NCBI GenBank assembly: GCA_032718475.1
Contig: JAUCBJ010005498.1
Coordinates: 1 to 64,000 of the forward strand
Direction of reading: 5' to 3'
Length of the DNA stretch: 64,000 nucleotides
Source: Nemertoderma westbladi
Lineage: Eukaryota; Animalia; Xenacoelomorpha
Shown: positions 3,999 through 61,217 of the stretch, piece after piece
Layout of the letters: every line of letters begins with the position of its first letter
Position numbering within the stretch: position 1 is the first letter of the stretch
Made by a program: the position numbers and the translations under genes
The notes under the pieces: generated by a model
Seen by the model: only the letters and a program-made list of their open reading frames with translations
Database searches by the model: none
Told to the model about the DNA's origin: nothing

Positions 3999-6111
<2,113 letters not shown>

Positions 6112-10183: not shown

Positions 10184-10359
10184 GTAGTATTATAGTTAAA
10201 CCTATGTTAATGTTCCACTGTAATGCTAACAGCACAGATAGCGCAATGGCGTTACGGCTACTCTATTGTAAGTATAATAATAAGTAATTACGCATTAGTT
10301 GTAATAAGTATTACATCGGCACAGGACTTTGTATTGTACTACTACTATGTAGGGCGAGC

Positions 10360-10695
10360 GAGATCGGACAGACAGTTGAAATGAGACCCTTCCAGGCTTC
10401 CCGATTCTCCTTAGTTGTCGCAATTTCGTTTCTCCCAAGTTCAGCATCCCTTTCAAGTTGATCTATATATGTTATGGCCGTTCGTCCACGGGTACGCTTT
10501 CCATGAGTTGGTTGCCAGAAAAGTAGATCTGATATGACCTCGTCTTTACTTCTCCAACAGTGCCCACTGAATCTTAATCTGCGTTGACGGAGGGTGGTTG
10601 ATACAGGTGGTATAGTACCATAAAGCTCGGCGTTTGTCATGTGTTGTCTCCAGCTGATGTTTAGGGCTGCATTTACTAGTCCTGTGTACCAACCA
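10360..10695 (-). mobile_element. RTE-like LINE 3' fragment
   Basis: TNAELY...RRLRFSGHCWR...WQP.HG.R.RGR; related to the peptide at 25647-26144. Confidence 0.8.
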
Positions 10696-10777
10696 TGGTT
10701 CAGGTTGGTTCAGGTGATTTTAGTTCGTTTTTCAATGCCTGTGTACACTAATGTAATCAACTGCTAGGTTTAGTTTT

Positions 10778-13355
10778 TTCAGCTGATATAGTTTTTAACT
10801 TTATTCAGCTGATATAGTTTGTAAGTTTATTCAACTGATATAGTTTGTAAGTTTATTCAGCTGAAATAGTTTGTAAGTTTATTCAGCAGATATAGTTTGT
10901 AAGTTTATTCAGCTGATATAGTTTGTAAGTTTATTCAGCTGATATAGTTTGTAAGTTTATTCAGCTGATATAAGTTTATTCAGCTGATATAAGTTTATTC
11001 GGCTGATATAGTTTGTAAGTTTATTCAGCTGATATAAGTTTATTCAGCTGATATAGTTTGTAAGTTTATTCAGATGATATAAGTTTATTCAGCTGATATA
11101 GTTTGTAAGTATATTCAGCTGATATAAGTTTATTCAGCTGATATAGTTTGTAAGTTTATTCAGCTGATATGGTTTGTAAGTTTATTAAGCTGATATAGTT
11201 TGTAAGTTTATTCAGCTGATATGGTTTGTAAGTTTATTAAGCTGATATAGTTTGTAAGTTATTCAGCTGATATAGTTTGTAAGTTTATTCAGCTGATATA
11301 GTATGTAAATTTATTCAGCTGTTTTATAGTTTGTAAATTTATTCAGCTGATATAGTTTGTAAGTTTATTCAGCTGATATAGTTTGTAAGTTTATTCAGCT
11401 GATATAGTTTGTAAGTTTATTCAGCTGATATAGTTTGTAAGTTTATTCAGCTGATATACTTTGTAAGTTTATTCAGCTGATATAGTTTGTAAGTTTATTC
11501 AGCTGATATAGTTTGTAAGTTTATTCAGCTGATATAGTTTGTAAGTTTATTCAGCTGAAATAGTTTGTAAGTTTATTCAGCTGAAAATAGTTTGTAAGTT
11601 TATTCAGCTGAAATAGTTTGTAAGTTTATTCAGCTGATATAGTTTGTAAGTTTATTCAGCTGATATAGTTTGTAAGTTTATTCAGCTGATATAGTTTGTA
11701 AAGTTTATTCAGCTGATATAGTTTGTAAGTTTATTCAGCTGATATAGTTTGTAAGTTTATTCAGCTGATATAGTTTGTAAGTTTATTCAGCTGATATAGT
11801 TTGTAAGTTTATTCAGCTGAAATAGTTTGTAAGTTTATTCAGCTGATATAGTTTGTAAGTTTATTCAGCTGATATAGTTTGTACGTTTATTCAGCTGATA
11901 TAGTTTGTAAGTTTATTCAGCTGATATAGTTTGTACGTTTATTCAGCTGATATAGTTTGTAAGTTTATTCAGCTGATATAGTTTGTAAGTTTATTCAGCT
12001 GATATAGTTTGTAAGTTTATTCAGCTGATATAGTTTGTAAGTTTATTCAGCTGGTATAGTTTGTAAGTTTATTCAGCTGTTATAGTTTGTAAGTTTATTC
12101 AACTGATATAGTTTGTAAGTTTATTCAGCTGATATAGTTTGTAAGTTTATTCAGCTGATATAGTTTGTAAGTTTATTCAGCTGATATAGTTTGTAAGTTT
12201 ATTCAGCTGAAATAGTTTGTAAGTTTATTCAGCTGATATAGTTTGTAAGTTTATTCAGCTGAAATAGTTTGTAAGTTTATTCAGCTGATATAGTTTGTAA
12301 GTTTATTCAGCTGATATAGTTTGTAAGTTTATTCAGCTGATATAGTTTGTAAGTTTATTCAGCTGATATAGTTTGTAAGTTTATTCAGCTGATATAGTTT
12401 GTAAGTTTATTCAGCTGATATAGTTTGTAAGTTTATTCAGCTGAAATAGTTTGTAAGTTTATTCAGCTGATATAGTTTGTAAGTTTATTCAGCTGATATA
12501 GTTTGTAAGTTTATTCAGCTGATATAGTTTGTAAGTTTATTCAGCTGATATAGTTTGTAAGTTTATTCAGCTGATATAGTTTGTAAGTTTATTCAGCTGA
12601 TATAGTTTGTAAGTTTATTCAGCTGATATAGTTTGTAAGTTTATTCAGCTGAAATAGTTTGTAAGTTTATTCAGCTGATATAGTTTGTAAGTTTATTCAG
12701 CTGATATAGTTTGTAAGTTTATTCAGCTGATATAGTTTGTAAGTTTATTCAGCTGATATAGTTTGTAAGTTTATTCAGCTGATATAGTTTGTAAGTTTAT
12801 TCAGCTGATATAGTTTGTAAGTTTATTCAGCTGATATAGTTTGTAAGTTTATTAAGCTGATATAGTTTGTAAGTTTATTCAGCTGAAATAGTTTGTAAGT
12901 TTATTCAGCTGATATAGTTTGTAAGTTTATTCAGCTGATATAGTTTGTAAGTTTATTCAGCTGATATAGTTTGTAAGTTTATTCAGCTGATATAGTTTGT
13001 AAGTTTATTCAGCTGATATAGTTTGTAAGTTTATTCAGCTGATATAGTTTGTAAGTTTATTCAGCTGATATAGTTTGTAAGTTTATTCAGCTGATATAGT
13101 TTGTAAGTTTATTCAACTGATATAGTTTGTAAGTTTACTCAGTTGATATAGTTTGTAAGTTTATTCAGCTGATATAGTTTGTAAGTTTATTCAGTTGATA
13201 TAGTTTGTAAGTTTATTCAGCTGATATAGTTTGTAAGTTTATTCAGCTGATATAGTTTGTAAGTTTATTCAGTTAATATAGTTTGTAAGTTTATTCAGCT
13301 GAAATAGTTTGTAAGTTTATTCAGAGCTGATATAGTTTGTAAGTTTATTCAGCTG
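10778..13355 (-). repeat. 26-bp tandem array (~99 units; sense strand CAGCTGAATAAACTTACAAACTATAT) starting within the last codons of the gene
   Basis: First unit overlaps GCT GAA TAA of exon 8; the unit contains AATAAA. Confidence 0.95.
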
Positions 13356-13617
13356 CCCCTTCAGTATCGCCTTCAACAGTTAGGAATATAATAATAGTTC
13401 CCACGACGAACGTGGTTGTGTACAATGCGAGACATATCCTATCGATTGTTAGTCCGACGTAACGCCAGTCTTCGTTAACCCTTTGGTACTCGTCCTCTGT
13501 TAACAGAAACTGGGTTATGTAGTTGAGGGCTGACATCGCTTGTTTAACGTCATTTCTTTGTCCCACCTTCTCTACTAGTGTCCCCAGTATCGGCTCATCT
13601 TCATCGATGTGTAACAC
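13345..13617 (-). CDS. Exon 8 (MA helix, M4, stop)
   Basis: CAG|GTG acceptor; [16 protein letters not shown]4; ends GAAE-TAA. Confidence 0.92.
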   Translation of the reverse strand: MLHIDEDEPILGTLVEKVGQRNDVKQAMSALNYITQFLLTEDEYQRVNEDWRYVGLTIDRICLALYTTTFVVGTIIIFLTVEGDTEGAAE

Positions 13618-16600
13618 CTGTATGATCCGAAGTCTTTATGTTAATTAAAGTATTAATTATTTTATTATAAATAACCTTACCAATAATACAAACATACATT
13701 AATATATAAAAGTTTCAAACTTTTTAATTTTTAGGAGGACCGATCCATTCCTTTAATTACTATTATTTTTTATTACAGATAATGTAATGTGACAGTTGAT
13801 ATAACCAGTAGACAACCTTATAAACCGTTAATATCTTTGAATTATTTACCAATACCTTATAAGACTTTATTATCTATAAATTGTTTACCAATACCTTATA
13901 AGGATTTATTATCTATGAATTGTTTACCAATACCTTATAAGACTTTATTATCTATAAATTGTTTACCAATACCTTATAAGGCTTTATTATCTATGAATTG
14001 TTTACCAATACCTTATAAGGCTTTATTATCTATGAATTGTTTACCAATACCTTATAAGGCTTTATTATCTATGAATTGTTTACCAATACCTTATAAGACT
14101 TTATTATCTCTAAATTGTTTACCAATACCTTATAAGGCTTTATTATCTATAAATTGTTTACCAATGCCTTATAAGACTTTATTATCTATAAATTGTTTAC
14201 CAATACCTTATAAGGATTTATTATCTATGAATTGTTTACCAATACCTTATAAGACTTTATTATCTATAAATTGTTTACCAATACCTTATAAGGCTTTATT
14301 ATCTATGAATTGTTTACCAATACCTTATAAGACTTTATTATCTCTAAATTGTTTACCAATACCTTATAAGACTTTATTATCTATAAATTGTTTACCAATA
14401 CCTTATAAGGCTTTATTATCTATGAATTGTTTACCAATACCTTATAAGACTTTATTATCTCTAAATTGTTTACCAATACCTTATAAGGCTTTATTATCTA
14501 TAAATTGTTTACCAATGCCTTATAAGACTTTATTATCTATAAATTGTTTACCAATACCTTATAAGACTTTATTATCTATAAATTGTTTACCAATACCTTA
14601 TAAGGCTTTATTATCTCTAAATTGTTTACCAATACCTTATAAGACTTTATTATCTATAAATTGTTTACCAATACCTTATAAGACTTTATTATCTCTAAAT
14701 TGTTTACCAATACCTTATAAGACTTTATTATCTCTAAATTGTTTACCAATACCTTATAAGACTTTATTATCTCTAAATTGTTTACCAATACCTTATAAGA
14801 CTTTATTATCTCTAAATTGTTTACCAATACCTTATAAGACTTTATTATCTCTAAATTGTTTACCAATACCTTATAAGACTTTATTATCTCTAAATTATTT
14901 ACTAATACCTTATAAGACTTTATTATCTATAAATTGTTTACCAATACCTTATAAGACTTTATTATCTATAAATTGTTTACCAATACCTTATAAGGCTTTA
15001 TTATCTCTAAATTGTTTACCAATACCTTATAAGACTTTATTATCTATAAATTGTTTACCAATACCTTATAAGACTTTATTATCTCTAAATTGTTTACCAA
15101 TACCTTATAAGACTTTATTATCTATAAATTGTTTACCAATACCTTATAAGACTTTATTATCTCTAAATTGTTTACCAATACCTTATAAGACTTTATTATC
15201 TCTAAATTGTTTACCAATACCTTATAAGACTTTATTATCTCTAAATTGTTTACCAATACCTTATAAGACTTTATTATCTCTAAATTATTTACTAATACCT
15301 TATAAGACTTTATTATCTATAAATTGTTTACCAATACCTTATAAGACTTTATTATCTCTAAATTGTTTACCAATACCTTATAAGACTTTATTATCTCTAA
15401 ATTGTTTACCAATACCTTATAAGACTTTATTATCTATAAATTGTTTACCAATACCTTATAAGGCTTTATTATCTATAAATTGTTTACCAATACCTTATAA
15501 GACTTTATTATCTATAAATTGTTTACCAATACCTTATAAGACTTTATTATCTATAAATTGTTTACCAATACCTTATAAGGCTTTATTATCTATAAATTGT
15601 TTACCAATACCTTATAAGACTTTATTATCTATAAATTGTTTACCAATACCTTATAAGACTTTATTATCTATAAATTGTTTACCAATACCTTATAAGACTT
15701 TATTATCTATAAATTGTTTACCAATACCTTATAAGACTTTATTATCTCTAAATTATTTACCAATACCTTATAAGACTTTATTATCTATAAATTGTTTACC
15801 AATACCTTATAAGACTTTATTATCTCTAAATTGTTTACCAATACCTTATAAGACTTTATTATCTCTAAATTGTTTACCAATACCTTATAAGACTTTATTA
15901 TCTCTAAATTGTTTACCAGTACCTTATAAGACTTTATTATCTATAAATTGTTTACCAATACCTTATAAGGCTTTATTATCTTTGAATTGTTTACCAATAC
16001 CTTATAAGGCTTTATTATCTATGAATTGTTTACCAATACATTATAAGACTTTATTATCTATGAATTGTTTACCAGTACCTACTTCTATTACAATAGGCCT
16101 GCTGCATTGAACCTGCACATTGAGATGCTATGCCAGCTTAAGAAAAACATTTTGTTAACACCATACAATCCACTGGCAAGCCCAATGCAGCGTGCATTAA
16201 AAATGCTATGCCGGCTTATCAACAAAATTGCACTGCCAGAAATCCCTATCCAACATGACTTTCGCGAGACTATTTTAATCACCTTATAAGGCTACTGTGT
16301 TGTCAGCTGCCTAGTGTAAGTGAATCTGTGAGCAAGCCTATATTTATTCCATATGAAAACCTTGTCAATATAACAATTACAAGGATTACAGGATTACCTG
16401 TAACAATGGCCAACAAAACTCTCAACAATCCGTTCAAGTATTCGGTCGAAAGTAAACGGCCACAGCCGTGGCTCATTGCAAGCGCTCAAAGCCGGGGACA
16501 GGTGGAATAATTCGCGTCAACGGACGCCCCATCGACGTGCTCGAACCCGCGTGCTTGCGGTACAAGTTACTTTAACCGCAGCTGTAACTCGGGAAGGAGA

Positions 16601-19600
16601 GATTCGCTGGGGTTGATATCCGTGTGCGAGTCAAGGGCAGCGGTCAGATATCGCAGGTATACGCGATACGCCAAGCGATATCCAAGCCTCTGGTTGCGTA
16701 CTATCAGAAGTTCGTGGATGAAGCGAGTAAGAAGGAGATTAAAGACATCCTAATCATGTACGATCGGACTCTATTGGTGGAGGATCCGAGACGAAACGAA
16801 CCCAAAAATTTCGGCGGACCCGGAGCCAGGGCTAGGTACCAGAAGAGTTAGTTATCGATAAGTCGCTAGCGGTTTTACGGGTATATTCTTTCAACTGTAT
16901 AGTATAATAAAATTCTTAATAAAGTTTGATTTTCTGTGTAATAAGCTAGCAATTAGGGTGTTCAGAGGCTGCGATGTAATTGAATTTGTATTGCAGCCTG
17001 TTAACTTTAATTTGGTATTTATTATACGATATAATGTATGGATTGTTTACCAATACCTTATAAGGCGTTAAATTAGAGTAAACAGTCCAGTTCATTTCAT
17101 CCAGATGTTCGTCTCTGTGTGAGTGGCTATTTGGCCGGTACAAACCGACCATCTTGGGCAGTTTGTCCACGAATATCCGTCGGAAACGCTTGGACATTGA
17201 ATGAGTGGACGGACTCCGCCAATGGACATTAATAACAACAATGGACAACATTACAGAAGCGGTTACCAGTAGCATACTGAAAATATTAAACAGAACAATA
17301 AATAGCGCTGTGCAGTAAACAATTTATATACTGTATATATTTATTTACTTTATACCTTATATAGATTACTTTTCCTTAGTTTAAATATGTTACAATTATT
17401 ATTTTTGTACCCATTACGCTTTTGGAATTATAGTTAATTTGAGATTATTTGATAAATAATACAGTATATCAATTGATATATTTCATTTAGTTTGAAAAAT
17501 AACGTTACTTTATTTTTTATTTCGCGCGATAATGAATTCGGTGCCATACATTTAATAAAACACTTATTTAATAAAATATATATATTTACTTACCAAAAAG
17601 TCAGATAAAATACAAGCAATGGAACACTGGCATTTCCCTTTGGTATAAAATCAGACAGTATGAGTAGAGGTAATGTTAGTGCGAGCAGTAAGGACACAGC
17701 AAGACTCATTTTCTCGCCTGCGTCACTTGGTAAATAGAATACCGCAATGGATAATAGGGACATTACTAACACTGGTAGCAACAGGTTGATCTGAAACGTA
17801 AACAATAAATGAGCCTAGGGACATTACTAACACTGGTAGCAACTCGTTGATCTGAAACGTAAACAAAAAAAAACAAAGAAACATAAAGATACAATAGAAC
17901 ATTTCAAAATGTCCCCCCTTTAGAGGTTCCGTAATGGTCAGTATTGGTAACATCTCGTAACAATATCGGTTATCGAGATAGGTGATAATCAGTATTGGTA
18001 ACATCTCGTAACAATATCGGTTATCGCTATAGGTGATAATCAGTATTGGTAACATCTCGTAACAATATCGGTTATCGAGATAGCTGATAATCAGTATTGG
18101 TAACATCTCGTAACAATATCGGTTATCGAGATAGGTGATAATCAGTATTGGTAACATCTCGTAACAATATCGGTTATCGCTATAGGTGATAATCAGTATT
18201 GGTAACATCTCGTAACAATATCGGTTATCGCTATAGGTGATAATTAGTATTGGTAACATCTCGTAACAATATCGGTTATCGAGATAGGTGATAATCAGTA
18301 TTGGTAACATCTCGTAACAATATCGGTTATCGAGATAGGTGATAATCAGTATTGGTAACATCTCGTAACAATATCGGTTATCGAGATAAGGTGATAATCA
18401 GTATTGGTAACATCTCGTAACAATATCGGTTATCGCTATAGGTGATAATCAGTATTGGTAACATCTCGTAACAATATCGGTTATCGCTATAGGTGACAAT
18501 TACCTCATAAAACAATGGTTTCCTTTTTATATGTATATCGTAAGTAATTGCTGAGTGATTCTCTCGGCTTCCCGGAAACTGCCACGTATGATTTCTACCT
18601 GGGAACCACGTTATATCCCATTCCGATGACGTCACGTACTGTTGCGGGTATTCCTTAGAAACTCCGGTTTCATAATCCGTGTTAATTCTAAAGCAGACAA
18701 AATGTAGTATGTATGGAGAGATATTATAGACAGACAAAATGTAGTACATATGGACAGACATTATAAACAGATAAAATGTAGCACATATAGACAGACATTA
18801 TAGACAGACAAAATGTGGTACATATGGAAAGACATTATAGACAGACAATATGTAGTACGTATGGACAGACATTATAGACAGACAAAATGTAGTACATATA
18901 GACAGACATTATAGACAGACAAAATGTATTACATATGGACAGACATTATAGACAGACAAAATGTAGTACATATGGACAGACATTATAGACAGACAAAATA
19001 TAGTACATATGGACAGACATTATAGACAGACAAAATGTAGTACATATGGACAGACATTATAGACAGACAAAATGTAGTACATATGGACAGACATTATAGA
19101 CAGACAAAATGTAGTACATATAGACAGACATTATAGACAGACAAAATGTATTACATATGGACAGACATTATAGACAGACAAAATGTAGTACATATGGACA
19201 GACATTATAGACAGACAAAATATAGTACATATGGACAGACATTATAGACAGACAAAATGTAGTACATATGGACAGACATTATAGACAGACAAAATGTAGT
19301 ACATATGGACAGACATTATAGACAGACAAAATGTAGTACATATAGACAGACATTATAGACAGACAAAATGTATTACATATGGACAGACATTATAGACAGA
19401 CAAAATGTAGTACATATGGACAGACATTATAGACAGACAAAATGTAGTACATATGGACAGACATTATAGACAGACACAATGTAGTACATATGGACAGACA
19501 TTATAGACAGACAAAATGTATTACATATAGACAGACATTATAGACAGACAAAATGTATTACATATGGACAGACATTATAGACAGACAAAATGTAGTACAT

Positions 19601-22600
19601 ATGGACAGACATTATAGACAGACAAAATATAGTACATATGGACAGACATTATAGACAGACAAAATGTAGTACATATGGACAGACATTATAGACAGACAAA
19701 ATGTAGTACATATAGACAGACATTATAGACAGACAAAATGTAGTACATATAGACAGACATTATAGACAGACAAAATGTATTACTTATGGACAGACATTAT
19801 AGACAGACAAAATGTAGTACATATGGACAGACATTATAGACAGACACAATGTAGTACATATAGACAGACACAATGTAGTACATATGGGCAGACAAAATGT
19901 AGTACATATGGACAGACATTATAAACAGATAAAATGTAGTACATATAGACAGACAAAATGTAGTATGTATGGACAGACATTATAAACAGACACAATGTAG
20001 TACATATGGACAGACATTATAGACAGAGAAAATGTAGTACATATAGACAGACAATATAGACAGACAAAATGTAGTACGTATGGACAGATATTATAGACAG
20101 ACAAAATGTAGTCTGACAGACATTATAAACAGACAAAATGTATTACATATGGACAGACATTATAGACAGACAAAATGTAGTACATATGGACAGACATTAT
20201 AGACAGACAAAATATAGTACATATGGACAGACATTATAGACAGACAAAATGTAGTACATATGGACAGACATTATAGACAGACAAAATGTAGTACATATGG
20301 ACAGACATTATAGACAGACAAAATGTAGTACATATGAACAGACAAAATGTAGTACATATGGACAGATATTATAGACAGACAAAATGTAGTACATATGGAC
20401 AGACATTATAGACAGACACAATGTAGTACATATAGACAGACACAATGTAGTACATATGGGCAGACAAAATGTATTACATATGGACAGACATTATAGGTAG
20501 ACAAAATATAGTACGTATGAACAGACATTATAGACAGACACAATGTAGTACATATGAACAGACAAAATGTAGTACGTATGGACAGATATTATAGACAGAC
20601 AAAATGTAGTACGTATGGACAGACATTATAGACAGACACAATGTAGTACATATAGACAGACATTATAGACAGACAAAATGTAGTACATATGGACAGACAT
20701 TATAGGTAGACAAAATATAGTACATATGGACAGACATTATAGACAGACACAATGTAGTACATATGAACAGACAAAATGTAGTACGTATGGACAGATATTA
20801 TAGACAGACAAAATGTAGTACGTATGGACAGACATTATAGACAGACACAATGTAGTACATATAGACAGACACAATGTAGTACATATGGGCAGACAAAATG
20901 TAGTACATATGGACAGACATTATAAACAGATAAAATGTAGTACATATAGACAGACAAAATGTAGTATGTATGGACAGATATTATAGACAGACAAAATGTA
21001 GTACGTATGGACAGACATTATAAACAGACACAATGTAGTACATATAGACAGACATTATAGACAGACAAAATGTAGTACATATGGACAGACATTATAGGTA
21101 GACAAAATATAGTACATATGGACAGACATTATAGACAGACACAATGTAGTACATATGAACAGACAAAATGTAGTACATATGGACAGATATTATAGACAGA
21201 CAAAATGTAGTACATATGGACAGACATTATAGACAGACACAATGTAGTACATATAGACAGACACAATGTAGTACATATGGGCAGACAAAATGTATTACAT
21301 ATGGACAGACATTATAGACAGACAAAATGTAGTACATATGGACAGATATTATAGACAGACAAAATGTAGTACATATAGACAGACATTATAGACAGACAAA
21401 ATGTAGTACATATAGACAGACATTATAGACAGACAAAATGTAGTACATATAGACAGACATTATAGACAGACAAAATGTAGTACATATAGACAGACATTAT
21501 AGACAGAAAAAATGTAGTACGTATGGACAGACATTATAGACAGACACAATGTAGTACTTATGGACAGACATTATAGACAGACAAAATGTAGTACATATGG
21601 ACAGACATTATAAACAGATAAAATGTAGTACATATGGACAGACATTATAGACAGACAAAATGTAGTACGTATGGACAGACATTATAGACAGACACAATGT
21701 AGTACTTATGGACAGACATTATAGACAGACAAAATGTAGTACATATGGACAGACATTATAAACAGATAAAATGTAGTACATATAGACAGACATTATAGAC
21801 AGAAAAAATGTAGTACGTATTGACAGACATTATAGACAGACACAATGTAGTACTTATGGACAGACATTATAGACAGACAAAATGTAGTACATATGGACAG
21901 ACATTATAAACAGATAAAATGTAGTACATATGGACAGATATTATAGACAAACAACATGTAGTACATATGGACAGACATTATAGACAGACAAAATGTAGTA
22001 CTTATGGACAGACATTATAGACAGACAAAATGTAGTACATATGGACAGACATTATAAACAGATAAAATGTAGTACATATAGACAGACAAAATGTAGTATG
22101 TATGGACAGACATTATAAACAGACACAATGTAGTACATATAGACAGACATTATAGACAGACAAAATGTAGTACATATGGACAGACATTATAGGTAGACAA
22201 AATATAGTACATATGGACAGACATTATAGACAGACAAAATGTAGTACATATGGACAGATATTATAGACAGACAAAATGTAGTACGTATGGACAGACAAAA
22301 TGTAGTATGTATGGACAGATATTATAGACAGACAAAATGTAGTACATATGGACAGACATTATAAACAGATAAAATGTAGTACATATAGACAGACAAAATG
22401 TAGTATGTATGGACAGACATTATAAACAGACACAATGTAGTACATATGGACAGACATTATAAACAGATAAAATGTAGTACATATGGACAGACATTATAAA
22501 CAGACACAATGTAGTACATATAGACAGACATTATAGACAGACAAAATGTAGTACATATGGACAGACATTATAGGTAGACAAAATATAGTACATATGGACA

Positions 22601-49600: not shown

Positions 49601-52600
49601 TCCAATCTACTCCGCTCATATATTGATGTATTATAGATCACCAACCTGTTATCTATCCAATCTACTCCGCTCATATATTGATGTATTATAGATCACCAAC
49701 CTGTTATCTATCCAATCTACTCCGATCTATATTGATGTATTATAGATCACCAACCTGTTATCTATCCAATCTACTCCGCTCATATATTGATGTATTATAG
49801 ATCACCAACCTGTTATCTATCCAATCTACTCCGCTCATATATTGATGTATTATAGATCACCAACCTGTTATCTATCCAATCTACTCCGCTCATATATTGA
49901 TGTATTATAGATCACCAACCTGTTATCTATCCAATCTACTCCGCTCATATATTGATGTATTATAGATCACCAACCTGTTATCTATCCAATCTACTCCGCT
50001 CATATATTGATGTATTATAGATCACCAACCTGTTATCTATCCAATCTACTCCGCTCATATATTGATGTATTATAGATCACCAACCTGTTATCTATCCAAT
50101 CTACTCCGATCTATATTGCTGTATTATAGATCACCAACCTGTTATCTATCCAATCTACTCCGCTCATATATTGATGTATTATAGATCACCAACCTGTTAT
50201 CTATCCAATCTACTCCGCTCATATATTGATGTATTATAGATCACCAACCTGTTATCTATCCAATCTACTCCGCTCATATATTGATGTATTATAGATCACC
50301 AACCTGTTATCTATCCAATCTACTCCGCTCATATATTGATGTATTATAGATCACCAACCTGTTATCTATCCAAACTACTCCGCTCATATATTGATGTATT
50401 ATAGATCACCAACCTGTTATCTATCCAATCTACTCCGCTCATATATTGATGTATTATAGATCACCAACCTGTTATCTATCCAAACTACTCCGCTCATATA
50501 TTGATGTATTATAGATCACCAACCTGTTATCTATCCAATCTACTCCGCTCATATATTGATGTATTATAGATCACCAACCTGTTATCTATCCAAACTACTC
50601 CGCTCATATATTGATGTATTATAGATCACCAACCTGTTATCTATCCAATCTACTCCGCTCATATATTGATGTATTATAGATCACCAACCTGTTATCTATC
50701 CAATCTACTCCGCTCATATATTGATGTATTATAGATCACCAACCTGTTATCTATCCAATCTACTCCGCTCATATATTGATGTATTATAGATCACCAACCT
50801 GTTATCTATCCAATCTACTCCGCTCATATATTGATGTATTATAGATCACCAACCTGTTATCTATCCAATCTACTCCGCTCATATATTGATGTATTATAGA
50901 TCACCAACCTGTTATCTATCCAATCTACTCCGCTCATATATTGATGTATTATAGATCACCAACCTGTTATCTATCCAAACTACTCCGCTCATATATTGAT
51001 GTATTATAGATCACCAACCTGTTATCTATCCAATCTACTCCGCTCATATATTGATGTATTATAGATCACCAACCTGTTATCTATCCAATCTACTCCGCTC
51101 ATATATTGATGTATTATAGATCACCAACCTGTTATCTATCCAATCTACTCCGCTCATATATTGATGTATTATAGATCACCAACCTGTTATCTATCCAATC
51201 TACTCCGCTCATATATTGATGTATTATAGATCACCAACCTGTTATCTATCACGAATCTACTCCGCTCATATATTGATGTATTATAGATCACCAACCTGTT
51301 ATCTATCCAATCTACTCCGCTCATATATTGATGTATTATAGATCACCAACCTGTTATCTATCCAATCTACTCCGCTCATATATTGATGTATTATAGATCA
51401 CCAACCTGTTATCTACACGAATCTACTCCGATCTATATTGCTGTATTATAGATCACCAACCTGTTATCTATCCAATCTACTCCGCTCATATATTGATGTA
51501 TTATAGATCACCAACCTGTTATCTATCCAAACTACTCCGCTCATATATTGATGTATTATAGATCACCAACCTGTTATCTATCCAATCTACTCCGCTCATA
51601 TATTGATGTATTATAGATCACCAACCTGTTATCTATCCAATCTACTCCGCTCATATATTGATGTATTATAGATCACCAACCTGTTATCTATCCAATCTAC
51701 TCCGCTCATATATTGATGTATTATAGATCACCAACCTGTTATCTATCCAATCTACTCCGCTCATATATTGATGTATTATAGATCACCAACCTGTTATCTA
51801 CACGAATCTACTCCGATCTATATTGCTGTATTATAGATCACCAACCTGTTATCTATCCAATCTACTCCGCTCATATATTGATGTATTATAGATCACCAAC
51901 CTGTTATCTATCCAAACTACTCCGCTCATATATTGATGTATTATAGATCACCAACCTGTTATCTATCCAATCTACTCCGCTCATATATTGATGTATTATA
52001 GATCACCAACCTGTTATCTACCGAATCTACTCCGCTCATATATTGATGTATTATAGATCACCAACCTGTTATCTATCCAATCTACTCCGCTCATATATTG
52101 ATGTATTATAGATCACCAACCTGTTATCTATCCAATCTACTCCGCTCATATATTGATGTATTATAGATCACCAACCTGTTATCTACACGAATCTACTCCG
52201 CTCATATATTGATGTATTATAGATCACCAACCTGTTATCTATCCAATCTACTCCGCTCATATATTGATGTATTATAGATCACCAACCTGTTATCTATCCA
52301 ATCTACTCCGCTCATATATTGATGTATTATAGATCACCAACCTGTTATCTACACGAATCTACTCCGATCTATATTGCTGTATTATAGATCACCAACCTGT
52401 TATCTATCCAATCTACTCCGCTCATATATTGATGTATTATAGATCACCAACCTGTTATCTATCCAAACTACTCCGCTCATATATTGATGTATTATAGATC
52501 ACCAACCTGTTATCTATCCAATCTACTCCGCTCATATATTGATGTATTATAGATCACCAACCTGTTATCTATCCAATCTACTCCGCTCATATATTGATGT

Positions 52601-55600
52601 ATTATAGATCACCAACCTGTTATCTATCCAATCTACTCCGCTCATATATTGATGTATTATAGATCACCAACCTGTTATCTATCCAATCTACTCCGCTCAT
52701 ATATTGATGTATTATAGATCACCAACCTGTTATCTACACGAATCTACTCCGATCTATATTGCTGTATTATAGATCACCAACCTGTTATCTATCCAATCTA
52801 CTCCGCTCATATATTGATGTATTATAGATCACCAACCTGTTATCTATCCAAACTACTCCGCTCATATATTGATGTATTATAGATCACCAACCTGTTATCT
52901 ATCCAATCTACTCCGCTCATATATTGATGTATTATAGATCACCAACCTGTTATCTATCCGAATCTACTCCGCTCATATATTGATGTATTATAGATCACCA
53001 ACCTGTTATCTATCCAATCTACTCCGCTCATATATTGATGTATTATAGATCACCAACCTGTTATCTATCCAATCTACTCCGCTCATATATTGATGTATTA
53101 TAGATCACCAACCTGTTATCTACACGAATCTACTCCGATCTATATTGCTGTATTATAGATCACCAACCTGTTATCTATCCAATCTACTCCGCTCATATAT
53201 TGATGTATTATAGATCACCAACCTGTTATCTATCCAAACTACTCCGCTCATATATTGATGTATTATAGATCACCAACCTGTTATCTACACGAATCTACTC
53301 CGATCTATATTGCTGTATTATAGATCACCAACCTGTTATCTATCCAATCTACTCCGCTCATATATTGATGTATTATAGATCACCAACCTGTTATCTATCC
53401 AAACTACTCCGCTCATATATTGATGTATTATAGATCACCAACCTGTTATCTATCCAATCTACTCCGCTCATATATTGATGTATTATAGATCACCAACCTG
53501 TTATCTATCCAATCTACTCCGCTCATATATTGATGTATTATAGATCACCAACCTGTTATCTATCCAATCTACTCCGCTCATATATTGATGTATTATAGAT
53601 CACCAACCTGTTATCTATCCAATCTACTCCGCTCATATATTGCTGTATTATAGATCACCAACCTGTTATCTATCCAATCTACTCCGCTCATATATTGATG
53701 TATTATAGATCACCAACCTGTTATCTATCCAATCTACTCCGATCTATATTGATGTATTATAGATCACCAACCTGTTATCTATCCAATCTACTCCGCTCAT
53801 ATATTGATGTATTATAGATCACCAACCTGTTATCTATCCAATCTACTCCGATCTATATTGATGTATTATAGATCACCAACCTGTTATCTATCCAATCTAC
53901 TCCGCTCATATATTGATGTATTATAGATCACCAACCTGTTATCTATCCAATCTACTCCGCTCATATATTGATGTATTATAGATCACCAACCTGTTATCTA
54001 CACGAATCTACTCCGCTCATATATTGATGTATTATAGATCACCAACCTGTTATCTATCCAATCTACTCCGCTCATATATTGATGTATTATAGATCACCAA
54101 CCTGTTATCTATCCAATCTACTCCGCTCATATATTGATGTATTATAGATCACCAACCTGTTATCTATCCAATCTACTCCGCTCATATATTGATGTATTAT
54201 AGATCACCAACCTGTTATCTATCCAATCTACTCCGCTCATATATTGATGTATTATAGATCACCAACCTGTTATCTATCCAATCTACTCCGCTCATATATT
54301 GATGTATTATAGATCACCAACCTGTTATCTATCCAATCTACTCCGCTCATATATTGATGTATTATAGATCACCAACCTGTTATCTATCCAATCTACTCCG
54401 CTCATATATTGATGTATTATAGATCACCAACCTGTTATCTATCCAATCTACTCCGCTCATATATTGATGTATTATAGATCACCAACCTGTTATCTATCCA
54501 ATCTACTCCGCTCATATATTGATGTATTATAGATCACCAACCTGTTATCTACACGAATCTACTCCGCTCATATATTGATGTATTATAGATCACCAACCTG
54601 TTATCTACACGAATCTACTCCGCTCATATATTGATGTATTATAGATCACCAACCTGTTATCTATCCAATCTACTCCGCTCATATATTGATGTATTATAGA
54701 TCACCAACCTGTTATCTATCCAATCTACTCCGATCTATATTGATGTATTATAGATCACCAACCTGTTATCTATCCAAACTACTCCGCTCATATATTGATG
54801 TATTATAGATCACCAACCTGTTATCTATCCAATCTACTCCGATCTATATTGATGTATTATAGATCACCAACCTGTTATCTATCCAAACTACTCCGATCTA
54901 TATTGATGTATTATAGATCACCAACCTGTTATCTATCCAATCTACTCCGCTCATATATTGATGTATTATAGATCACCAACCTGTTATCTACACGAATCTA
55001 CTCCGCTCATATATTGATGTATTATAGATCACCAACCTGTTATCTACACGAATCTACTCCGCTCATATATTGATGTATTATAGATCACCAACCTGTTATC
55101 TATCCAATCTACTCCGCTCATATATTGATGTATTATAGATCACCAACCTGTTATCTATCCAATCTACTCCGCTCATATATTGATGTATTATAGATCACCA
55201 ACCTGTTATCTATCCAATCTACTCCGCTCATATATTGATGTATTATAGATCACCAACCTGTTATCTATCCAATCTACTCCGCTCATATATTGATGTATTA
55301 TAGATCACCAACCTGTTATCTATCCAAACTACTCCGCTCATATATTGATGTATTATAGATCACCAACCTGTTATCTATCCAATCTACTCCGATCTATATT
55401 GATGTATTATAGATCACCAACCTGTTATCTATCCAATCTACTCCGCTCATATATTGATGTATTATAGATCACCAACCTGTTATCTATCCAATCTACTCCG
55501 ATCTATATTGATGTATTATAGATCACCAACCTGTTATCTATCCAATCTACTCCGATCTATATTGATGTATTATAGATCACCAACCTGTTATCTATCCAAA

Positions 55601-58600
55601 CTACTCCGATCTATATTGATGTATTATAGATCACCAACCTGTTATCTATCCAATCTACTCCGCTCATATATTGATGTATTATAGATCACCAACCTGTTAT
55701 CTATCCAATCTACTCCGATCTATATTGATGTATTATAGATCACCAACCTGTTATCTATCCAATCTACTCCGATCTATATTGATGTATTATAGATCACCAA
55801 CCTGTTATCTATCCAAACTACTCCGATCTATATTGATGTATTATAGATCACCAACCTGTTATCTATCCAATCTACTCCGCTCATATATTGATGTATTATA
55901 GATCACCAACCTGTTATCTACACGAATCTACTCCGCTCATATATTGATGTATTATAGATCACCAACCTGTTATCTACACGAATCTACTCCGCTCATATAT
56001 TGATGTATTATAGATCACCAACCTGTTATCTATCCAATCTACTCCGCTCATATATTGATGTATTATAGATCACCAACCTGTTATCTATCCAATCTACTCC
56101 GATCTATATTGATGTATTATAGATCACCAACCTGTTATCTATCCAAACTACTCCGCTCATATATTGATGTATTATAGATCACCAACCTGTTATCTATCCA
56201 ATCTACTCCGATCTATATTGATGTATTATAGATCACCAACCTGTTATCTATCCAAACTACTCCGATCTATATTGATGTATTATAGATCACCAACCTGTTA
56301 TCTATCCAATCTACTCCGCTCATATATTGATGTATTATAGATCACCAACCTGTTATCTACACGAATCTACTCCGCTCATATATTGATGTATTATAGATCA
56401 CCAACCTGTTATCTACACGAATCTACTCCGCTCATATATTGATGTATTATAGATCACCAACCTGTTATCTATCCAATCTACTCCGCTCATATATTGATGT
56501 ATTATAGATCACCAACCTGTTATCTATCCAATCTACTCCGCTCATATATTGATGTATTATAGATCACCAACCTGTTATCTATCCAATCTACTCCGCTCAT
56601 ATATTGATGTATTATAGATCACCAACCTGTTATCTATCCAATCTACTCCGCTCATATATTGATGTATTATAGATCACCAACCTGTTATCTATCCAAACTA
56701 CTCCGCTCATATATTGATGTATTATAGATCACCAACCTGTTATCTATCCAATCTACTCCGCTCATATATTGATGTATTATAGATCACCAACCTGTTATCT
56801 ATCCAATCTACTCCGCTCATATATTGATGTATTATAGATCACCAACCTGTTATCTATCCAATCTACTCCGCTCATATATTGATGTATTATAGATCACCAA
56901 CCTGTTATCTACACGAATCTACTCCGCTCATATATTGATGTATTATAGATCACCAACCTGTTATCTACACGAATCTACTCCGCTCATATATTGATGTATT
57001 ATAGATCACCAACCTGTTATCTATCCAATCTACTCCGCTCATATATTGATGTATTATAGATCACCAACCTGTTATCTATCCAATCTACTCCGATCTATAT
57101 TGATGTATTATAGATCACCAACCTGTTATCTATCCAAACTACTCCGCTCATATATTGATGTATTATAGATCACCAACCTGTTATCTATCCAATCTACTCC
57201 GATCTATATTGATGTATTATAGATCACCAACCTGTTATCTATCCAAACTACTCCGATCTATATTGATGTATTATAGATCACCAACCTGTTATCTATCCAA
57301 TCTACTCCGCTCATATATTGATGTATTATAGATCACCAACCTGTTATCTACACGAATCTACTCCGCTCATATATTGATGTATTATAGATCACCAACCTGT
57401 TATCTACACGAATCTACTCCGCTCATATATTGATGTATTATAGATCACCAACCTGTTATCTATCCAATCTACTCCGCTCATATATTGATGTATTATAGAT
57501 CACCAACCTGTTATCTATCCAATCTACTCCGATCTATATTGATGTATTATAGATCACCAACCTGTTATCTATCCAAACTACTCCGCTCATATATTGATGT
57601 ATTATAGATCACCAACCTGTTATCTATCCAATCTACTCCGATCTATATTGATGTATTATAGATCACCAACCTGTTATCTATCCAAACTACTCCGCTCATA
57701 TATTGATGTATTATAGATCACCAACCTGTTATCTATCCAATCTACTCCGCTCATATATTGCTGTATTATAGATCACCAACCTGTTATCTATCCAATCTAC
57801 TCCGCTCATATATTGATGTATTATAGATCACCAACCTGTTATCTACACGAATCTACTCCGCTCATATATTGATGTATTATAGATCACCAACCTGTTATCT
57901 ATCCAATCTACTCCGCTCATATATTGATGTATTATAGATCACCAACCTGTTATCTATCCAATCTACTCCGCTCATATATTGATGTATTATAGATCACCAA
58001 CCTGTTATCTATCCAATCTACTCCGCTCATATATTGATGTATTATAGATCACCAACCTGTTATCTATCCAATCTACTCCGCTCATATATTGATGTATTAT
58101 AGATCACCAACCTGTTATCTATCCAATCTACTCCGCTCATATATTGATGTATTATAGATCACCAACCTGTTATCTATCCAATCTACTCCGCTCATATATT
58201 GATGTATTATAGATCACCAACCTGTTATCTATCCAATCTACTCCGCTCATATATTGATGTATTATAGATCACCAACCTGTTATCTACACGAATCTACTCC
58301 GCTCATATATTGATGTATTATAGATCACCAACCTGTTATCTATCCAATCTACTCCGCTCATATATTGATGTATTATAGATCACCAACCTGTTATCTATCC
58401 AATCTACTCCGCTCATATATTGATGTATTATAGATCACCAACCTGTTATCTATCCAATCTACTCCGATCTATATTGCTGTATTATAGATCACCAACCTGT
58501 TATCTATCCAATCTACTCCGATCTATATTGATGTATTATAGATCACCAACCTGTTATCTACACGAATCTACTCCGATCTATATTGATGTATTATAGATCA

Positions 58601-61217
58601 CCAACCTGTTATCTATCCAATCTACTCCGATCTATATTGATGTATTATAGATCACCAACCTGTTATCTATCCAATCTACTCCTATCCATATTGCTGTATT
58701 ATAGATCACCAACCTGTTATCTATCCAATCTACTCCTATCCATATTGCTGTATTATAGATCACCAACCTGTTATCTATCCAATCTACTCCGATCTATATT
58801 GATGTATTATAGATCACCAACCTGTTATCTACACGAATCTACTCCGATCTATATTGATGTATTATAGATCACCAACCTGTTATCTATCCAATCTACTCCG
58901 ATCTATATTGATGTATTATAGATCACCAACCTGTTATCTACACGAATCTAATCCGATCTATATTGATGTATTATAGATCACCAACCTGTTATCTATCCAA
59001 TCTACTCCGATCTATATTGATGTATTATAGATCACCAACCTGTTATCTATCCAATCTACTCCGATCTATATTGATGTATTATAGATCACCAACCTGTTAT
59101 CTATCCAATCTACTCCGATCTATATTGATGTATTATAGATCACCAACCTGTTATCTATCCAATCTACTCCGATCTATATTGCTGTATTATAGATCACCAA
59201 CCTGTTATCTATCCAATCTACTCCGATCTATATTGCTGTATTATAGATCACCAACCTGTTATCTATCCAATCTACTCCGATCTATATTGATGTATTATAG
59301 ATCACCAACCTGTTATCTATCCAATCTACTCCGATCTATATTGATGTATTATAGATCACCAACCTGTTATCTATCCAATCTACTCCGATCTATATTGATG
59401 TATTATAGATCACCAACCTGTTATCTATCCAATCTACTCCGATCTATATTGATGTATTATAGATCACCAACCTGTTATCTATCCAATCTACTCCGATCTA
59501 TATTGATGTATTATAGATCACCAACCTGTTATCTATCCAATCTACTCCGATCTATATTGCTGTATTATAGATCACCAACCTGTTATCTATCCAATCTACT
59601 CCGATCTATATTGCTGTATTATAGATCACCAACCTGTTATCTATCCAATCTACTCCGATCCATATTGCTGTATTATAGATCACCAACCTGTTATCTATCC
59701 AATCTACTCCGATACATATTGCTGTATTATAGATCACCAACCTGTTATCTATCCAATCTACTCCGATCTATATTGATGTATTATAGATCACCAACCTGTT
59801 ATCTATCCAATCTACTCCGATACATATTGCTGTATTATAGATCACCAACCTGTTATCTATCCAATCTACTCCGATCCATATTGCTGTTTTTATCTCCTCA
59901 TCTTGTTCTGCAACGTCTACTATTTGGGTCAGAGTCAAAATGAAGTTAATAACAATCAATTCACCTAAACATATTAAATAATATAAAGTTAATAACAATC
60001 AATTCACCTAAACATATTAAATAATATAAAGTTAATAACAATCAATTCACCTAAACATATTAAATAATATATAAAGTTAATAACAATAAATTCTCCTAAA
60101 CATATTAAATATTAAATAATATATAAAGTTAATAACAATCAATTCACCTAAACATATTAAATAATATATAAAGTTAATAACAATCAATTCACCTAAACAT
60201 ATTAAATATTAAATAATATATAAAGTTAATAACAATCAATTCACCTAAACATATTAAATAATATATAAAGTTAATAACAATCAATTCTCCTAAACATATT
60301 AAATAATATATAAAGTTAATAACAATCAATTCTCCTAAACATATTAAATATTAAATAATATATAAAGTTAATAACAATTAATTCTCCTAAACATATTAAA
60401 TAATATATAAAGTTAATAACAATCAATTCTCCTAAACATATTAAATAATATATAAAGTTAATAACAATCAATTCTCCTAAACATATTAAATAATATAAGG
60501 TTAATAACAATCAATTCACCTAAACATATTAAATATTAAATAATATATAAAGTTAATAACAATCAATTCTCCTAAACATATTAAATAATATATAAAGTTA
60601 ATAACAATCAATTCTCCTAAACATATTAAATATTAAATAATATATAAAGTTAATAACAATCAATTCACCTAAACATATTAAATATTAAATAATATATAAA
60701 GTTAATAACAATCAATTCTCCTAAATATATTAAATAATAATTATTTATATAAAGTTAATAACAATCAATTCTCCTAAACATATTAAATAATATATAAAGT
60801 TAATAACAATCAATTCACCTAAACATATTAAATATTAAATAATATATAAAGTTAATAACAATCAATTCCTCTAAACATATTAAATAATAATTATTCATAG
60901 AAAGTTAATAACAATCAATTCACCTCCTAAACATATTAAACTTTATAATAATTACTATTTATTATCCGAAACAATATAATCCCAATAAAAATTAAGATTT
61001 GTGGAAAAATGGAAAGAGGGACCTGACTTTTTCAGATCTTGTCTACTGGATTGCAGTACCACAGACTTATTTATTACTGACCTTGGCTATTTACAGGCCT
61101 CGAAGACGAATCGTAATCAGCGAACAGTTTGGAAACGAGTTTCTGAGATGGAGTTTCGAATCGTGTTGTAAAAACCACAGAAATTAAACTCAATAGAAAA
61201 ACTAGGTTGAAATTCAT
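13345..61217 (-). CDS. Cys-loop ligand-gated ion channel subunit, nicotinic acetylcholine receptor-like (non-alpha); 8 exons: 61217-61082, 59964-59850, 33940-33785, 24016-23867, 18687-18504, 17790-17594, 17276-17057, 13617-13345; 476 aa
   Basis: Hand-spliced model with GT-AG introns and matching phases (1,2,2,2,0,2,0); total 1431 nt with no internal stop. Motifs in order: signal peptide, LFADY..RPV, QIVDV.E, W.D.RL.W, LWQPN, Cys-loop [33 protein letters not shown]1, [10 protein letters not shown]2, VPL-M3, [22 protein letters not shown]4. Confidence 0.93.
13815..16080 (-). repeat. 39-bp tandem array (~58 units) containing the exon-7 donor CTTATAAG|GTATTGGTAAACAAT
   Basis: 23-25 bp identity with 17043-17066. 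Confidence 0.95.
16406..16925 (+). pseudogene. RPS16: Processed pseudogene of 40S ribosomal protein S16 (uS9)
   Basis: Intronless [17 protein letters not shown]...RYKLL*P...[10 protein letters not shown]...[13 protein letters not shown]. Several in-frame stops; an AGTT duplication before the terminal TAT CGA TAA; AATAAA at ~16906 and ~16918. Confidence 0.93.
17057..17276 (-). CDS. Exon 7 (M3, MX helix, start of intracellular loop)
   Basis: [25 protein letters not shown]; TCAG|T acceptor and AAG|GTATTG donor. Confidence 0.88.
17594..17790 (-). CDS. Exon 6 (M1, M2, start of M3)
   Basis: INLLLP...[22 protein letters not shown]...VPLL; tttCAG| acceptor and TG|GTAAGT donor. Confidence 0.93.
17932..18503 (-). 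repeat. 51-bp tandem array (~11 units) starting at the exon-5 donor
   Basis: Unit TATTGTTACGAGATGTTACCAATACTGATTATCACCTATMKCGATAACCGA; the donor GTAATTGTCACC aligns with CTGATTATCACC in the unit. Confidence 0.92.
18504..18687 (-). CDS. Exon 5 (loops F and C, pre-M1)
   Basis: tttAG|A acceptor and GAG|GTAATT donor; YVTSSEWDI...[15 protein letters not shown]. Confidence 0.9.
18692..23810 (-). repeat. 37-bp tandem array (~140 units, with 24-bp deletion variants) filling intron 4
   Basis: Plus-strand unit AGACAGACAAAATGTAGTACATATGGACAGACATTAT; abuts the exon-5 acceptor. Confidence 0.95.
23867..24016 (-). CDS. Exon 4 with Cys-loop: [49 protein letters not shown]
   Basis: C-x13-C signature; TACAG|G acceptor; AT|GTTAGT donor gives the phase needed by exon 5. 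Confidence 0.92.
25490..26190 (+). mobile_element. RTE-like LINE 3' fragment nested in the CRE-like element
   Basis: [11 protein letters not shown]...LLYG...RLRFAGHC; its 5' part closely matches the reverse complement of 63395-63780. Confidence 0.85.
27988..32141. repeat. GC-rich tandem array of 69-bp and 55-bp units (often 124-bp higher-order pairs), ~65 units
   Basis: Unit GTAGCGAGTGGGGGACAGTTTACACAGGGACGCCCTGCGAGGGCGCATCCACAGA[GGATGGTTCATCCT]. Confidence 0.95.
32170..33479. mobile_element. Non-autonomous foldback DNA transposon, Merlin-like
   Basis: 8-bp TSD GCCACAAT (32162-32169 and 33480-33487); termini GGTTAT/GGTAAT. Inverted arms of 15-17-bp AAAAATATCGAG repeats (32178-32711 and 33036-33471) surround an AT-rich core. 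Confidence 0.8.
33785..33940 (-). CDS. Exon 3: (R)[51 protein letters not shown](R)
   Basis: Not in ORF track. ttcCAG|G acceptor and CCAG|GTAAAC donor; contains the loop-A LWxP motif. Confidence 0.9.
33990..35600 (+). mobile_element. 5'-truncated non-LTR retrotransposon (RT + C-terminal Cys/His knuckle; RTE-X/L2-like, clade uncertain)
   Basis: [46 protein letters not shown]; frameshifted C-terminus HHHIC..CICSLC. Confidence 0.88.
35884..59886 (-). repeat. 54/55-bp tandem array, ~24 kb, ~440 units, each made of the last ~12 codons of exon 2 + donor AG|GTTGGT + ~17 nt of intron
   Basis: Sense unit CAATATAGATCGGAGTAGATTGGATAGATAACAG|GTTGGTGATCTATAATACAG versus exon GCAATATGGATCGGAGTAGATTGGATAGATAACAG|GTTGGT. 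Confidence 0.97.
59850..59964 (-). CDS. Exon 2: (G)[37 protein letters not shown](R)
   Basis: tttAG|GTGA acceptor and CAG|GTTGGT donor; beta1-beta2 pattern QIVDV.E and loop-D Trp. Confidence 0.9.
59943..60940 (-). repeat. 43/45/52-bp tandem array (~21 units) made of the exon-2 acceptor + first ~7 codons
   Basis: Sense unit TATATATTATTTAATATGTTTAG|GWGAATTGATTGTTATTAACTT. Confidence 0.95.
61082..61217 (-). CDS. Exon 1 (signal peptide + N-terminal helix): [45 protein letters not shown](G)
   Basis: Not in ORF track. Hydrophobic leader, nAChR-type 'KL...LF..Y....RPV', donor CAAG|GTCAGT, phase 1 matches exon 2. Confidence 0.88.

What the first reader, a model, noticed from the sequence alone, without database searches (positions are those of the whole stretch)
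10778..60940. Gene-wide system: tandem arrays seeded at exon boundaries multiply the gene's own RNA-processing signals
Seen: 9 of the gene's 15 boundaries (14 splice sites + stop) carry a local tandem amplification of that boundary's own sequence. These are exon-2 acceptor (~21x), exon-2 donor (~440x), exon-3 donor (2x, degenerate), exon-4 acceptor (2x), exon-5 acceptor region (~140x), exon-5 donor (~11x), exon-6 acceptor (2x), exon-7 donor (~58x) and stop/AATAAA (~99x). The units are unrelated (25-61 bp), so these are independent events. All stages from 2 to ~440 copies coexist, and the ORF stays intact using the exon-proximal site each time. Inference: either a splicing- or transcription-coupled duplication mechanism targets exon junctions, or originally small introns grew by boundary-spanning duplication. 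Either way the spliceosome must ignore hundreds of identical decoy sites. I do not know of this being described as a general mechanism, but could not search.
Basis: partly seen in the sequence, partly recalled or inferred. Interest (0 to 1): 0.92.

Follow-up and report, generated by a model that had tools for sequence, protein, structure and literature searches.

The report
Splice-junction "mirage" repeats in receptor gene
An animal acetylcholine-receptor gene carries head-to-tail copies (2 to about 440) of six of its own splice junctions and of its stop codon, a very dense example of the "mirage" repeats already described in lancelets, likely arising by ordinary repeat growth and likely ignored by splicing.

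Summary
The arrays are real features of the sequence, but the kind is known. The minus strand holds an intact 8-exon, 476-codon nicotinic acetylcholine receptor subunit gene. Seven of its 15 boundaries are copied with the junction inside the unit: exon-2 acceptor (20 copies), exon-2 donor (440), exon-3 donor (2, degenerate), exon-4 and exon-6 acceptors (2 each), exon-7 donor (58) and stop/AATAAA (about 95). The two exon-5 arrays only abut their sites and contain no copy of them, so 9 of 15 becomes 7 of 15. Such repeats were named 'mirages' in amphioxus (PMC3087553), and human F7 has one whose silent donors were tested (PMC1557585). Removing arrays and insertions leaves introns of roughly 100-400 bp. 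Against that null, 6 of 8 intragenic duplications span a junction where 2.3-3.9 are expected (P 0.009-0.13, post hoc, one selected gene). Short introns plus survival bias therefore explain much, perhaps not all. Of 516 decoy sites, 515 would bring a premature stop. Junction usage is untested: no RNA holder was listed. What stands out is density, scale (arrays are 69% of the gene) and the stop/AATAAA array.

The parts
61082..61217 (-). Exon 1 (ATG, hydrophobic leader) of a nicotinic acetylcholine receptor-like subunit; no boundary copies
59943..60952 (-). Exon-2 acceptor array: units 43-53 bp, about 23 nt intron end plus about 22 nt exon start, 20 junction copies
59850..59964 (-). Exon 2 (115 nt); both ends are the terminal units of arrays
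35897..59887 (-). Exon-2 donor array: 54-56 bp units, about 37 nt exon end plus about 18 nt intron start, 440 junction copies, 24 kb
33785..33940 (-). Exon 3
33755..33808 (-). Degenerate two-copy duplication of the exon-3 donor; decoy GT 25 nt downstream, out of frame
   Evidence: missed by the stricter tests
24004..24062 (-). Two-copy duplication of the exon-4 acceptor (period 40, 19 nt identical)
23867..24016 (-). Exon 4 (Cys-loop)
18694..23809 (-). 37/24-bp array filling intron 4 and ending 6 nt before exon 5; copies the pyrimidine-rich intron end but not the AG (abuts, does not span)
18504..18687 (-). Exon 5
17938..18500 (-). 51-bp array, 11 copies, starting 3 nt into intron 5; no donor copy; weak likeness to the start of exon 6
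17755..17870 (-). Two-copy 61-bp duplication of the exon-6 acceptor; bridged by short-read contigs of three runs
17594..17790 (-). Exon 6 (transmembrane region)
17057..17276 (-). Exon 7
16400..17029 (+). Processed, broken RPS16 copy lying antisense in intron 7, between the real exon-7 donor unit and its array
13815..16080 (-). Exon-7 donor array: 39-bp units, 10-14 nt exon end plus intron start, 57 decoys (55 with GT)
13345..13617 (-). Exon 8 coding part, ending in a TAA that overlaps an AATAAA
10772..13355 (-). Stop/AATAAA array: 26-bp units of the last codons, stop and first 3' UTR bases; 96 AATAAA

Best explanation
These are 'mirage' minisatellites: short pieces of DNA spanning an exon edge are repeated head to tail, likely through local duplication followed by unequal exchange or slippage, and they likely persist because only the exon-side copy is predicted to be spliced. 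Shown: the units join exon to intron sequence, the arrays have variant blocks and ancestral-type edge units, the exon copy keeps conserved codons that the array copies have lost, and the frame is intact. Inferred: the ancestral gene was about 3 kb with introns of 100-400 bp, so a 25-61 bp duplication that is not purged (wholly exonic ones would be) has a 30-45% chance of crossing a junction. Inferred from F7 and exon definition: the first donor and last acceptor win, and rare errors would be removed because nearly all decoys bring a premature stop. The stop/AATAAA array is likely the same process at the end of the coding region.
For: Definition and behaviour match amphioxus mirages: units of 10-160 bp, both 5' and 3' boundaries, concerted evolution sparing cluster edges (PMC3087553 section 16; PMC3902484 passages). 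Variant domains and a 22-unit block repeated within the exon-2 donor array. Only 9 of 440 exon-2 donor units, the real exon and the three most distal among them, keep the TGG of a Trp conserved in nicotinic receptors. 0 of 7 spliced exon-exon 20-mers occur in the window at up to 3 mismatches, so the source was DNA or unspliced RNA. 515 of 516 decoys with intact AG/GT give a premature stop. Target-site duplications mark a 9.3-kb and probably a 1.8-kb insertion, leaving short introns. Short-intron null expects 2.3-3.9 spanning events against 6 seen; P rises to 0.08-0.13 if exon-anchored copies stay recognisable twice as long. Downstream identical donors of human F7 are functional yet unused (PMC1557585).
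Against: No duplication with a unit of 25 bp or more was found mid-intron outside mobile elements. The factor of two is my assumption, and ancestral intron lengths are hand estimates without an orthologue. The published origin of mirages is itself called unclear. Splicing was not observed here.
Confidence: 0.68

Rival explanations
1. A process tied to transcription or splicing (pausing, R-loops or repair at exon edges, or repair templated by unspliced RNA) makes tandem duplications preferentially at exon boundaries and at the 3' end, so junctions are mutational hotspots and not just survivors.
For: 8 of 8 intragenic duplications with units of 25 bp or more span or abut a splice site, P 0.0009-0.0075 under the TE-free null; the stop/AATAAA region is also hit; about 12 kb of inserted DNA in the introns shows only arrays that seem to belong to the elements themselves; the same pattern is reported at several amphioxus loci.
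Against: One gene, picked because it is extreme; spanning excess falls to P 0.08-0.13 under a modest detectability bias; inserted elements may be younger than the arrays; no spliced-junction copies; short mid-intron duplications of 14-19 bp exist; no shared sequence motif among units was found.
Confidence: 0.22
2. The arrays have a function or a cost: they tune splicing or 3' end choice (for example the in-frame second exon-2 donor adding 18 residues, or a choice among 96 AATAAA), or the gene is recently silenced and the decoys no longer matter.
For: The first exon-2 decoy donor is in frame without a stop; each stop-array unit carries AATAAA and the array has only 8 GT in 2573 nt, so a GU-rich downstream element may lie only beyond its far end.
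Against: 515 of 516 decoys give premature stops; the frame and conserved residues are intact while decoy copies have drifted; published mirages and F7 show no aberrant transcripts.
Confidence: 0.07
3. The arrays are largely assembly artefacts, single boundary sequences over-expanded by the assembler.
For: Lengths of 2-24 kb cannot be confirmed from short-read contigs; read support for the exon-2, exon-5 and stop arrays was not obtained; run X2 showed no high-depth contig on the exon-7 unit.
Against: Units carry shared variants in domains (33 distinct pieces among 389 in the largest array, 13 among 55, 23 among 93); contigs of runs X1, X2 and X3 bridge the exon-6 duplicate, X3 differing from the window at two intron sites; contigs on the exon-7 donor unit have depth 876 and 500 against 37.6 in X3, and X1 shows a unit-to-unit joint (depth is no copy number, and X1 and X2 may be the source DNA).
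Confidence: 0.03

Closest known systems
Amphioxus 'mirage' minisatellites (Adh3; globins BflGb6, BflGb9; troponin C; PGBD5). PMC3087553: abstract passage, section 16 in full, reference entries. PMC3902484: passages. The original Adh3 paper (PMC117041) was not held; seen only as a reference entry and through these two papers.
   Same: Tandem units spanning exon-intron boundaries, at donors and acceptors; many units keep AG/GT; unit sizes overlap (Adh3 10-72 bp); more than one array per gene (two in PGBD5; a range of unit sizes in Adh3); homogenised middle with distinct edge units.
   Different: Six splice junctions in one gene; up to 440 copies and 24 kb against 2-7 copies in the globin and PGBD5 cases; an analogous array over the stop codon and AATAAA; the animal does not appear to be a lancelet (its RPS16 piece is 86% identical to B. 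floridae, no closer than to many other animals) but is not placed; splicing and length polymorphism untested here.
Human F7 intron-7 37-bp VNTR (PMC1557585: abstract and Discussion read)
   Same: First unit spans the exon-intron boundary; identical downstream donors; the upstream site is the one that keeps the protein.
   Different: Five to nine donors there against 439 and 55 decoys here; one site per gene; usage shown by experiment there, inferred here; acceptor side not covered there.
Internal tandem repeats at exon-intron boundaries in human segmental duplications (PMC2812944: passages)
   Same: Minisatellites of about 30 bp at exon-intron boundaries, 27 intron modifications counted.
   Different: There the repeats are often kept in alternative transcripts or create introns; here no new intron or exon is evident and copy numbers are far higher.

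Membership tests
Mirage minisatellite | Repeat unit spans an exon-intron boundary of the host gene | tested here: met
   Six splice boundaries (exon-2 acceptor and donor, exon-3 donor degenerate, exon-4 and exon-6 acceptors, exon-7 donor):
Mirage minisatellite (the two exon-5 arrays) | Repeat unit spans an exon-intron boundary | tested here: not met
   One junction copy only at each exon-5 boundary; no significant unit match across the junction. They are boundary-adjacent minisatellites and are not filed as mirages.
Mirage minisatellite (stop/AATAAA array) | Boundary is an exon-intron junction | tested here: not met
   Unit spans the stop codon, not a splice site; it is built like a mirage but is not one by definition
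Mirage minisatellite | Copies carry potential duplicate AG/GT splice signals | tested here: met
   19 of 19, 439 of 439, 1 of 1, 1 of 1 and 55 of 57 decoys keep AG or GT, plus the exon-3 decoy
Mirage minisatellite | Minisatellite turnover: homogenised interior, distinct edge units | tested here: met
   Variant domains and block repeats; exon-type Trp codon in 9 of 440 units, among them the exon and the three most distal units
Mirage minisatellite | Normal splicing is not disturbed | not testable with these tools
   No RNA holder listed; intact frame and conserved residues are indirect
Mirage minisatellite | Length polymorphism or somatic instability | tested here: inconclusive
   Only short-read contigs for one 1.1-kb stretch; they cannot size arrays
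Nicotinic acetylcholine receptor subunit (Cys-loop channel), host gene | Ligand-binding domain with Cys-loop followed by the transmembrane region | tested here: met
   PF02931 on exons 3-5 (exons 3 and 5 weak, below the curated cut-off as single exons) and PF02932 on exons 6-8; C-x13-C in exon 4; no adjacent cysteine pair seen in the translation, so non-alpha type (criterion recalled)

The most novel reading that the evidence does not exclude
In this lineage exon edges and the transcript's 3' end are true hotspots of tandem duplication, driven by a transcription- or splicing-coupled process, so that genes inflate more than tenfold by copying their own processing signals; mirages would then be the trace of a general mutational mechanism, and this gene, with 516 decoy splice sites and 96 AATAAA, a natural assay of how far exon-proximal site choice can be pushed.
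Probability: 0.2. Interest if true: 0.75.

Novelty: new member of a known kind. Interest (0 to 1): 0.33.

Why it matters
As it stands it is an unusually dense and large example of a named but little-studied repeat class: arrays make up about 69% of a 48-kb gene whose ancestral form was about 3 kb, which matters for gene prediction, for intron-size evolution and for the intron-gain model proposed for mirages. A donor followed by 439 copies with the same -3..+6 core is a strong natural test of the upstream-first rule shown on five to nine sites in F7. If a genome-wide test showed real targeting of junctions, it would answer the open question of how mirages arise; my nine paper searches listed no such test by title or abstract start.

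Tried and rejected
No whole genome is held, so the genome-wide enrichment test could not be run. No RNA holder listed for exons 6-7; run X5, which has very high depth on the RPS16-like part only, does not cover these exons: neither is evidence on expression. Read support for the exon-2 arrays was not obtained and stays open. Homologue searches with single exons 7 and 6 against longer proteins found nothing at E 0.001 (weak searches), so no orthologous locus and no orthologue intron sizes. Placing the animal by the RPS16 copy failed: best named hits span annelids, a spider, molluscs and vertebrates at 83-89%; the Atlas gave only the family. Rejected: exon-5 donor and exon-5 acceptor as junction copies; a coding role for the 51-bp unit (peptide likeness to the exon 5/6 region p 0.04 locally, 0.43 against the whole protein); an origin from spliced cDNA (0 of 7 junctions); a null that counts present-day transposon DNA as target, which gives P below 1e-4 but assumes the insertions are as old as the arrays. 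The original mirage paper is not held. Look-ups of earlier notes on this genome and on look-alike stretches were empty. Supplements of the four papers read were not opened; they may hold larger copy numbers or more arrays per gene than the main texts give.

Full report
Host gene. The minus strand carries eight exons (61217-61082, 59964-59850, 33940-33785, 24016-23867, 18687-18504, 17790-17594, 17276-17057, 13617-13345). All seven introns are GT-AG and the joined frame is 476 codons with no internal stop. Exons 3-5 match Pfam Neur_chan_LBD at profile positions 66-100, 107-150 and 172-216 (exons 3 and 5 weakly), and exons 6-8 match Neur_chan_memb at 2-64, 66-121 and 176-233. Exons 2, 4 and 6 match solved nicotinic receptor chains. 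It is a nicotinic acetylcholine receptor-like subunit of an animal I could not place; an invertebrate is my inference.

Check of the observation. A 20-mer centred on each of 16 boundaries, counted at up to 3 mismatches, gave more than one copy at six: exon-2 acceptor 20, exon-2 donor 440, exon-4 acceptor 2, exon-6 acceptor 2, exon-7 donor 58, stop 93. These agree with Tandem Repeats Finder for the large arrays (20.8, 437.8, 58.1 and 100.5 copies) and exceed all 100 shuffles. The exon-3 donor duplicate was missed but is supported with gaps allowed (p 0.0004). The two exon-5 arrays do not contain their junctions. The 37-bp array stops 6 nt short of exon 5 and is almost free of AG (11 in 5116 nt). 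The 51-bp array starts 3 nt into intron 5, is not significantly like the exon-5 tail, and is somewhat like the start of exon 6 (p 0.003-0.009; 0.3-0.5% of 2654 background windows), so it may be an old, decayed exon-6 copy, which is not established. The count is therefore 7 of 15 spanned and 2 abutted. The exon-7 array is separated from the real donor by about 1 kb that holds a processed RPS16 copy.

Are the arrays real? Units carry shared variants arranged in domains, with a 22-unit block repeated in the largest array, as minisatellite turnover would give. For the one stretch laid (16880-17960), contigs of runs X1, X2 and X3 cover up to 17851 and so bridge the exon-6 duplicate; X3 differs from the window at two intron sites. 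Contigs on the exon-7 donor unit have depth 876 and 500 against 37.6 in X3 and 141.8 against 31.5 in X1, and X1 shows a unit-to-unit joint; X2 shows no such contig. X1 and X2 may be the source DNA and depth is no copy number, so this supports multiple copies, not the lengths.

What the decoys would do. Decoys with intact AG or GT number 19 (exon-2 acceptor), 439 (exon-2 donor, all with the same -3..+6 core as the real site), 1 (exon-3 donor), 1 (exon-4 acceptor), 1 (exon-6 acceptor) and 55 (exon-7 donor). Of these 516, 515 give a premature stop; the exception is the first exon-2 decoy donor, 54 nt downstream and in frame. The exon copy keeps the Trp codon of the W-I-G-x-D-W motif seen in solved receptors, whereas only 9 of 440 units, the exon included, keep it. 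This points to the exon as the original, selected copy. It does not show which site is spliced: no RNA holder was listed. The stop array has 96 AATAAA and only 8 GT on the sense strand; which, if any, is used is unknown, and the distal one is as possible as the proximal one.

Is the junction bias more than chance? A 17-bp direct repeat brackets a 9.3-kb insertion in intron 3 and an 11-bp one probably brackets a 1.8-kb reverse-transcriptase element in intron 2. Removing insertions and extra units by hand leaves introns of about 138, 121, 405, 100, 140, 317 and 228 bp; arrays add 32.9 kb (69%) and insertions 12.1 kb (25%) of the 47.9-kb gene. An unbiased scan of the 22 kb outside the large arrays found, inside the gene at score 14 or more, only the exon-4 and exon-6 duplicates and one low-complexity 19-bp repeat within the intron-3 insertion. 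A gap-tolerant scan of 9094 positions gave six clusters: three at boundaries, two AT-rich ones inside the insertion and one 14-bp mid-intron duplicate. If wholly exonic duplications are purged and the rest fall at random, 2.3 of the 8 intragenic events with units of 25 bp or more should span a junction; 6 do (P 0.009). Adding two short mid-intron duplicates gives P 0.016; assuming exon-anchored copies stay recognisable twice as long gives P 0.08-0.13. All 8 lie within 10 nt of a junction (P 0.0009-0.0075; 0.0075-0.044 with the short ones). These are post hoc figures on one gene chosen for being extreme, with estimated intron lengths. Short introns and survival explain a good part; a real bias is neither shown nor excluded.

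How it most likely works. A 25-61 bp piece is duplicated in place (inferred; none of 7 spliced junction 20-mers occurs in the window, so spliced cDNA is not the source). Copies wholly inside an exon would be purged; copies across a boundary leave an intact exon at one end and put the extra units in the intron. The pair then grows by unequal exchange or slippage (inferred). The spliceosome is predicted to take the first donor and last acceptor, and rare errors would be cleared by nonsense-mediated decay (inferred and from F7).

Comparison with what is known. Earlier notes of this scan (AI notes, unchecked) pointed to 'mirages', and I checked the papers. PMC3087553 (section 16 read in full) describes tandem repeats spanning exon-intron boundaries in amphioxus globins and Adh3, at both 5' and 3' boundaries, units of 10-160 bp, no disturbance of splicing, length instability, edge units spared from homogenisation, and calls the mechanism of origin unclear. 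PMC3902484 (passages) reports two such arrays in one gene, PGBD5, and cites troponin C. [quoted passage not shown] PMC2812944 (passages) counts boundary minisatellites in human duplicated genes. The original Adh3 paper was not held. Six of the arrays here meet the sequence definition of a mirage; the exon-5 arrays and the stop array do not, though the stop array is built the same way. Nine searches (listings and abstract starts only) showed no genome-wide enrichment test for such repeats and no stop/AATAAA array; most subscription papers are outside this library.

Verdict. Real and striking in density and scale, but a new member of a known kind. The open and worthwhile question is whether junctions are actively favoured, which needs the whole genome. 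Interest 0.33; the targeted-mechanism reading has about a 20% chance and would deserve about 0.75.

Noticed in passing
window 16400-17029 (+): Processed, broken RPS16 copy with 3' UTR, antisense in intron 7, starting right after the real exon-7 donor unit. Run X5 has depth of 15,000-50,000 on its 3' part only, and loose ends at 17029 in X2, X3 and X5 probably show the parent gene's continuation.
   Followed up: partly
window 24344-33642: 9.3-kb composite insertion in intron 3 bracketed by a 17-bp direct repeat, with an A-rich tail; holds a decayed retrotransposon-like element, a GC-rich 55/69-bp array (27990-32139) and inverted 15-17-bp arrays (32177-32720 and 33037-33471) around a 300-bp core, like a foldback element (labels recalled).
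   Followed up: partly
window 33999-35842 (+): Reverse-transcriptase element fragment (PF00078, E 2e-31) in intron 2, probably bracketed by an 11-bp direct repeat.
   Followed up: partly
window 4028-6011: Nearly perfect 6-bp repeat of 331 copies whose unit reads as an AG/GT splice-like word on the plus strand; no flanking exon recognised.
   Followed up: no
window 1976-2549, 2893-3145, 62999-63209: A 22-bp array arranged as two inverted arms, and two long near-perfect palindromes (about 250 and 210 bp).
   Followed up: no
window 17938-18500 and 17030-17070: The 51-bp intron-5 unit shares about 10 bases, on the opposite strand, with the intron part of the exon-7 donor unit; likely chance given the number of unit pairs (seen by eye, not tested).
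   Followed up: no
window 25493-25868 and 63400-63776: Two 96% identical copies of a 377-bp reverse-transcriptase element piece in opposite orientation, one in intron 3 and one upstream of the gene; further fragments at 8840-9929 and 10314-10709.
   Followed up: no
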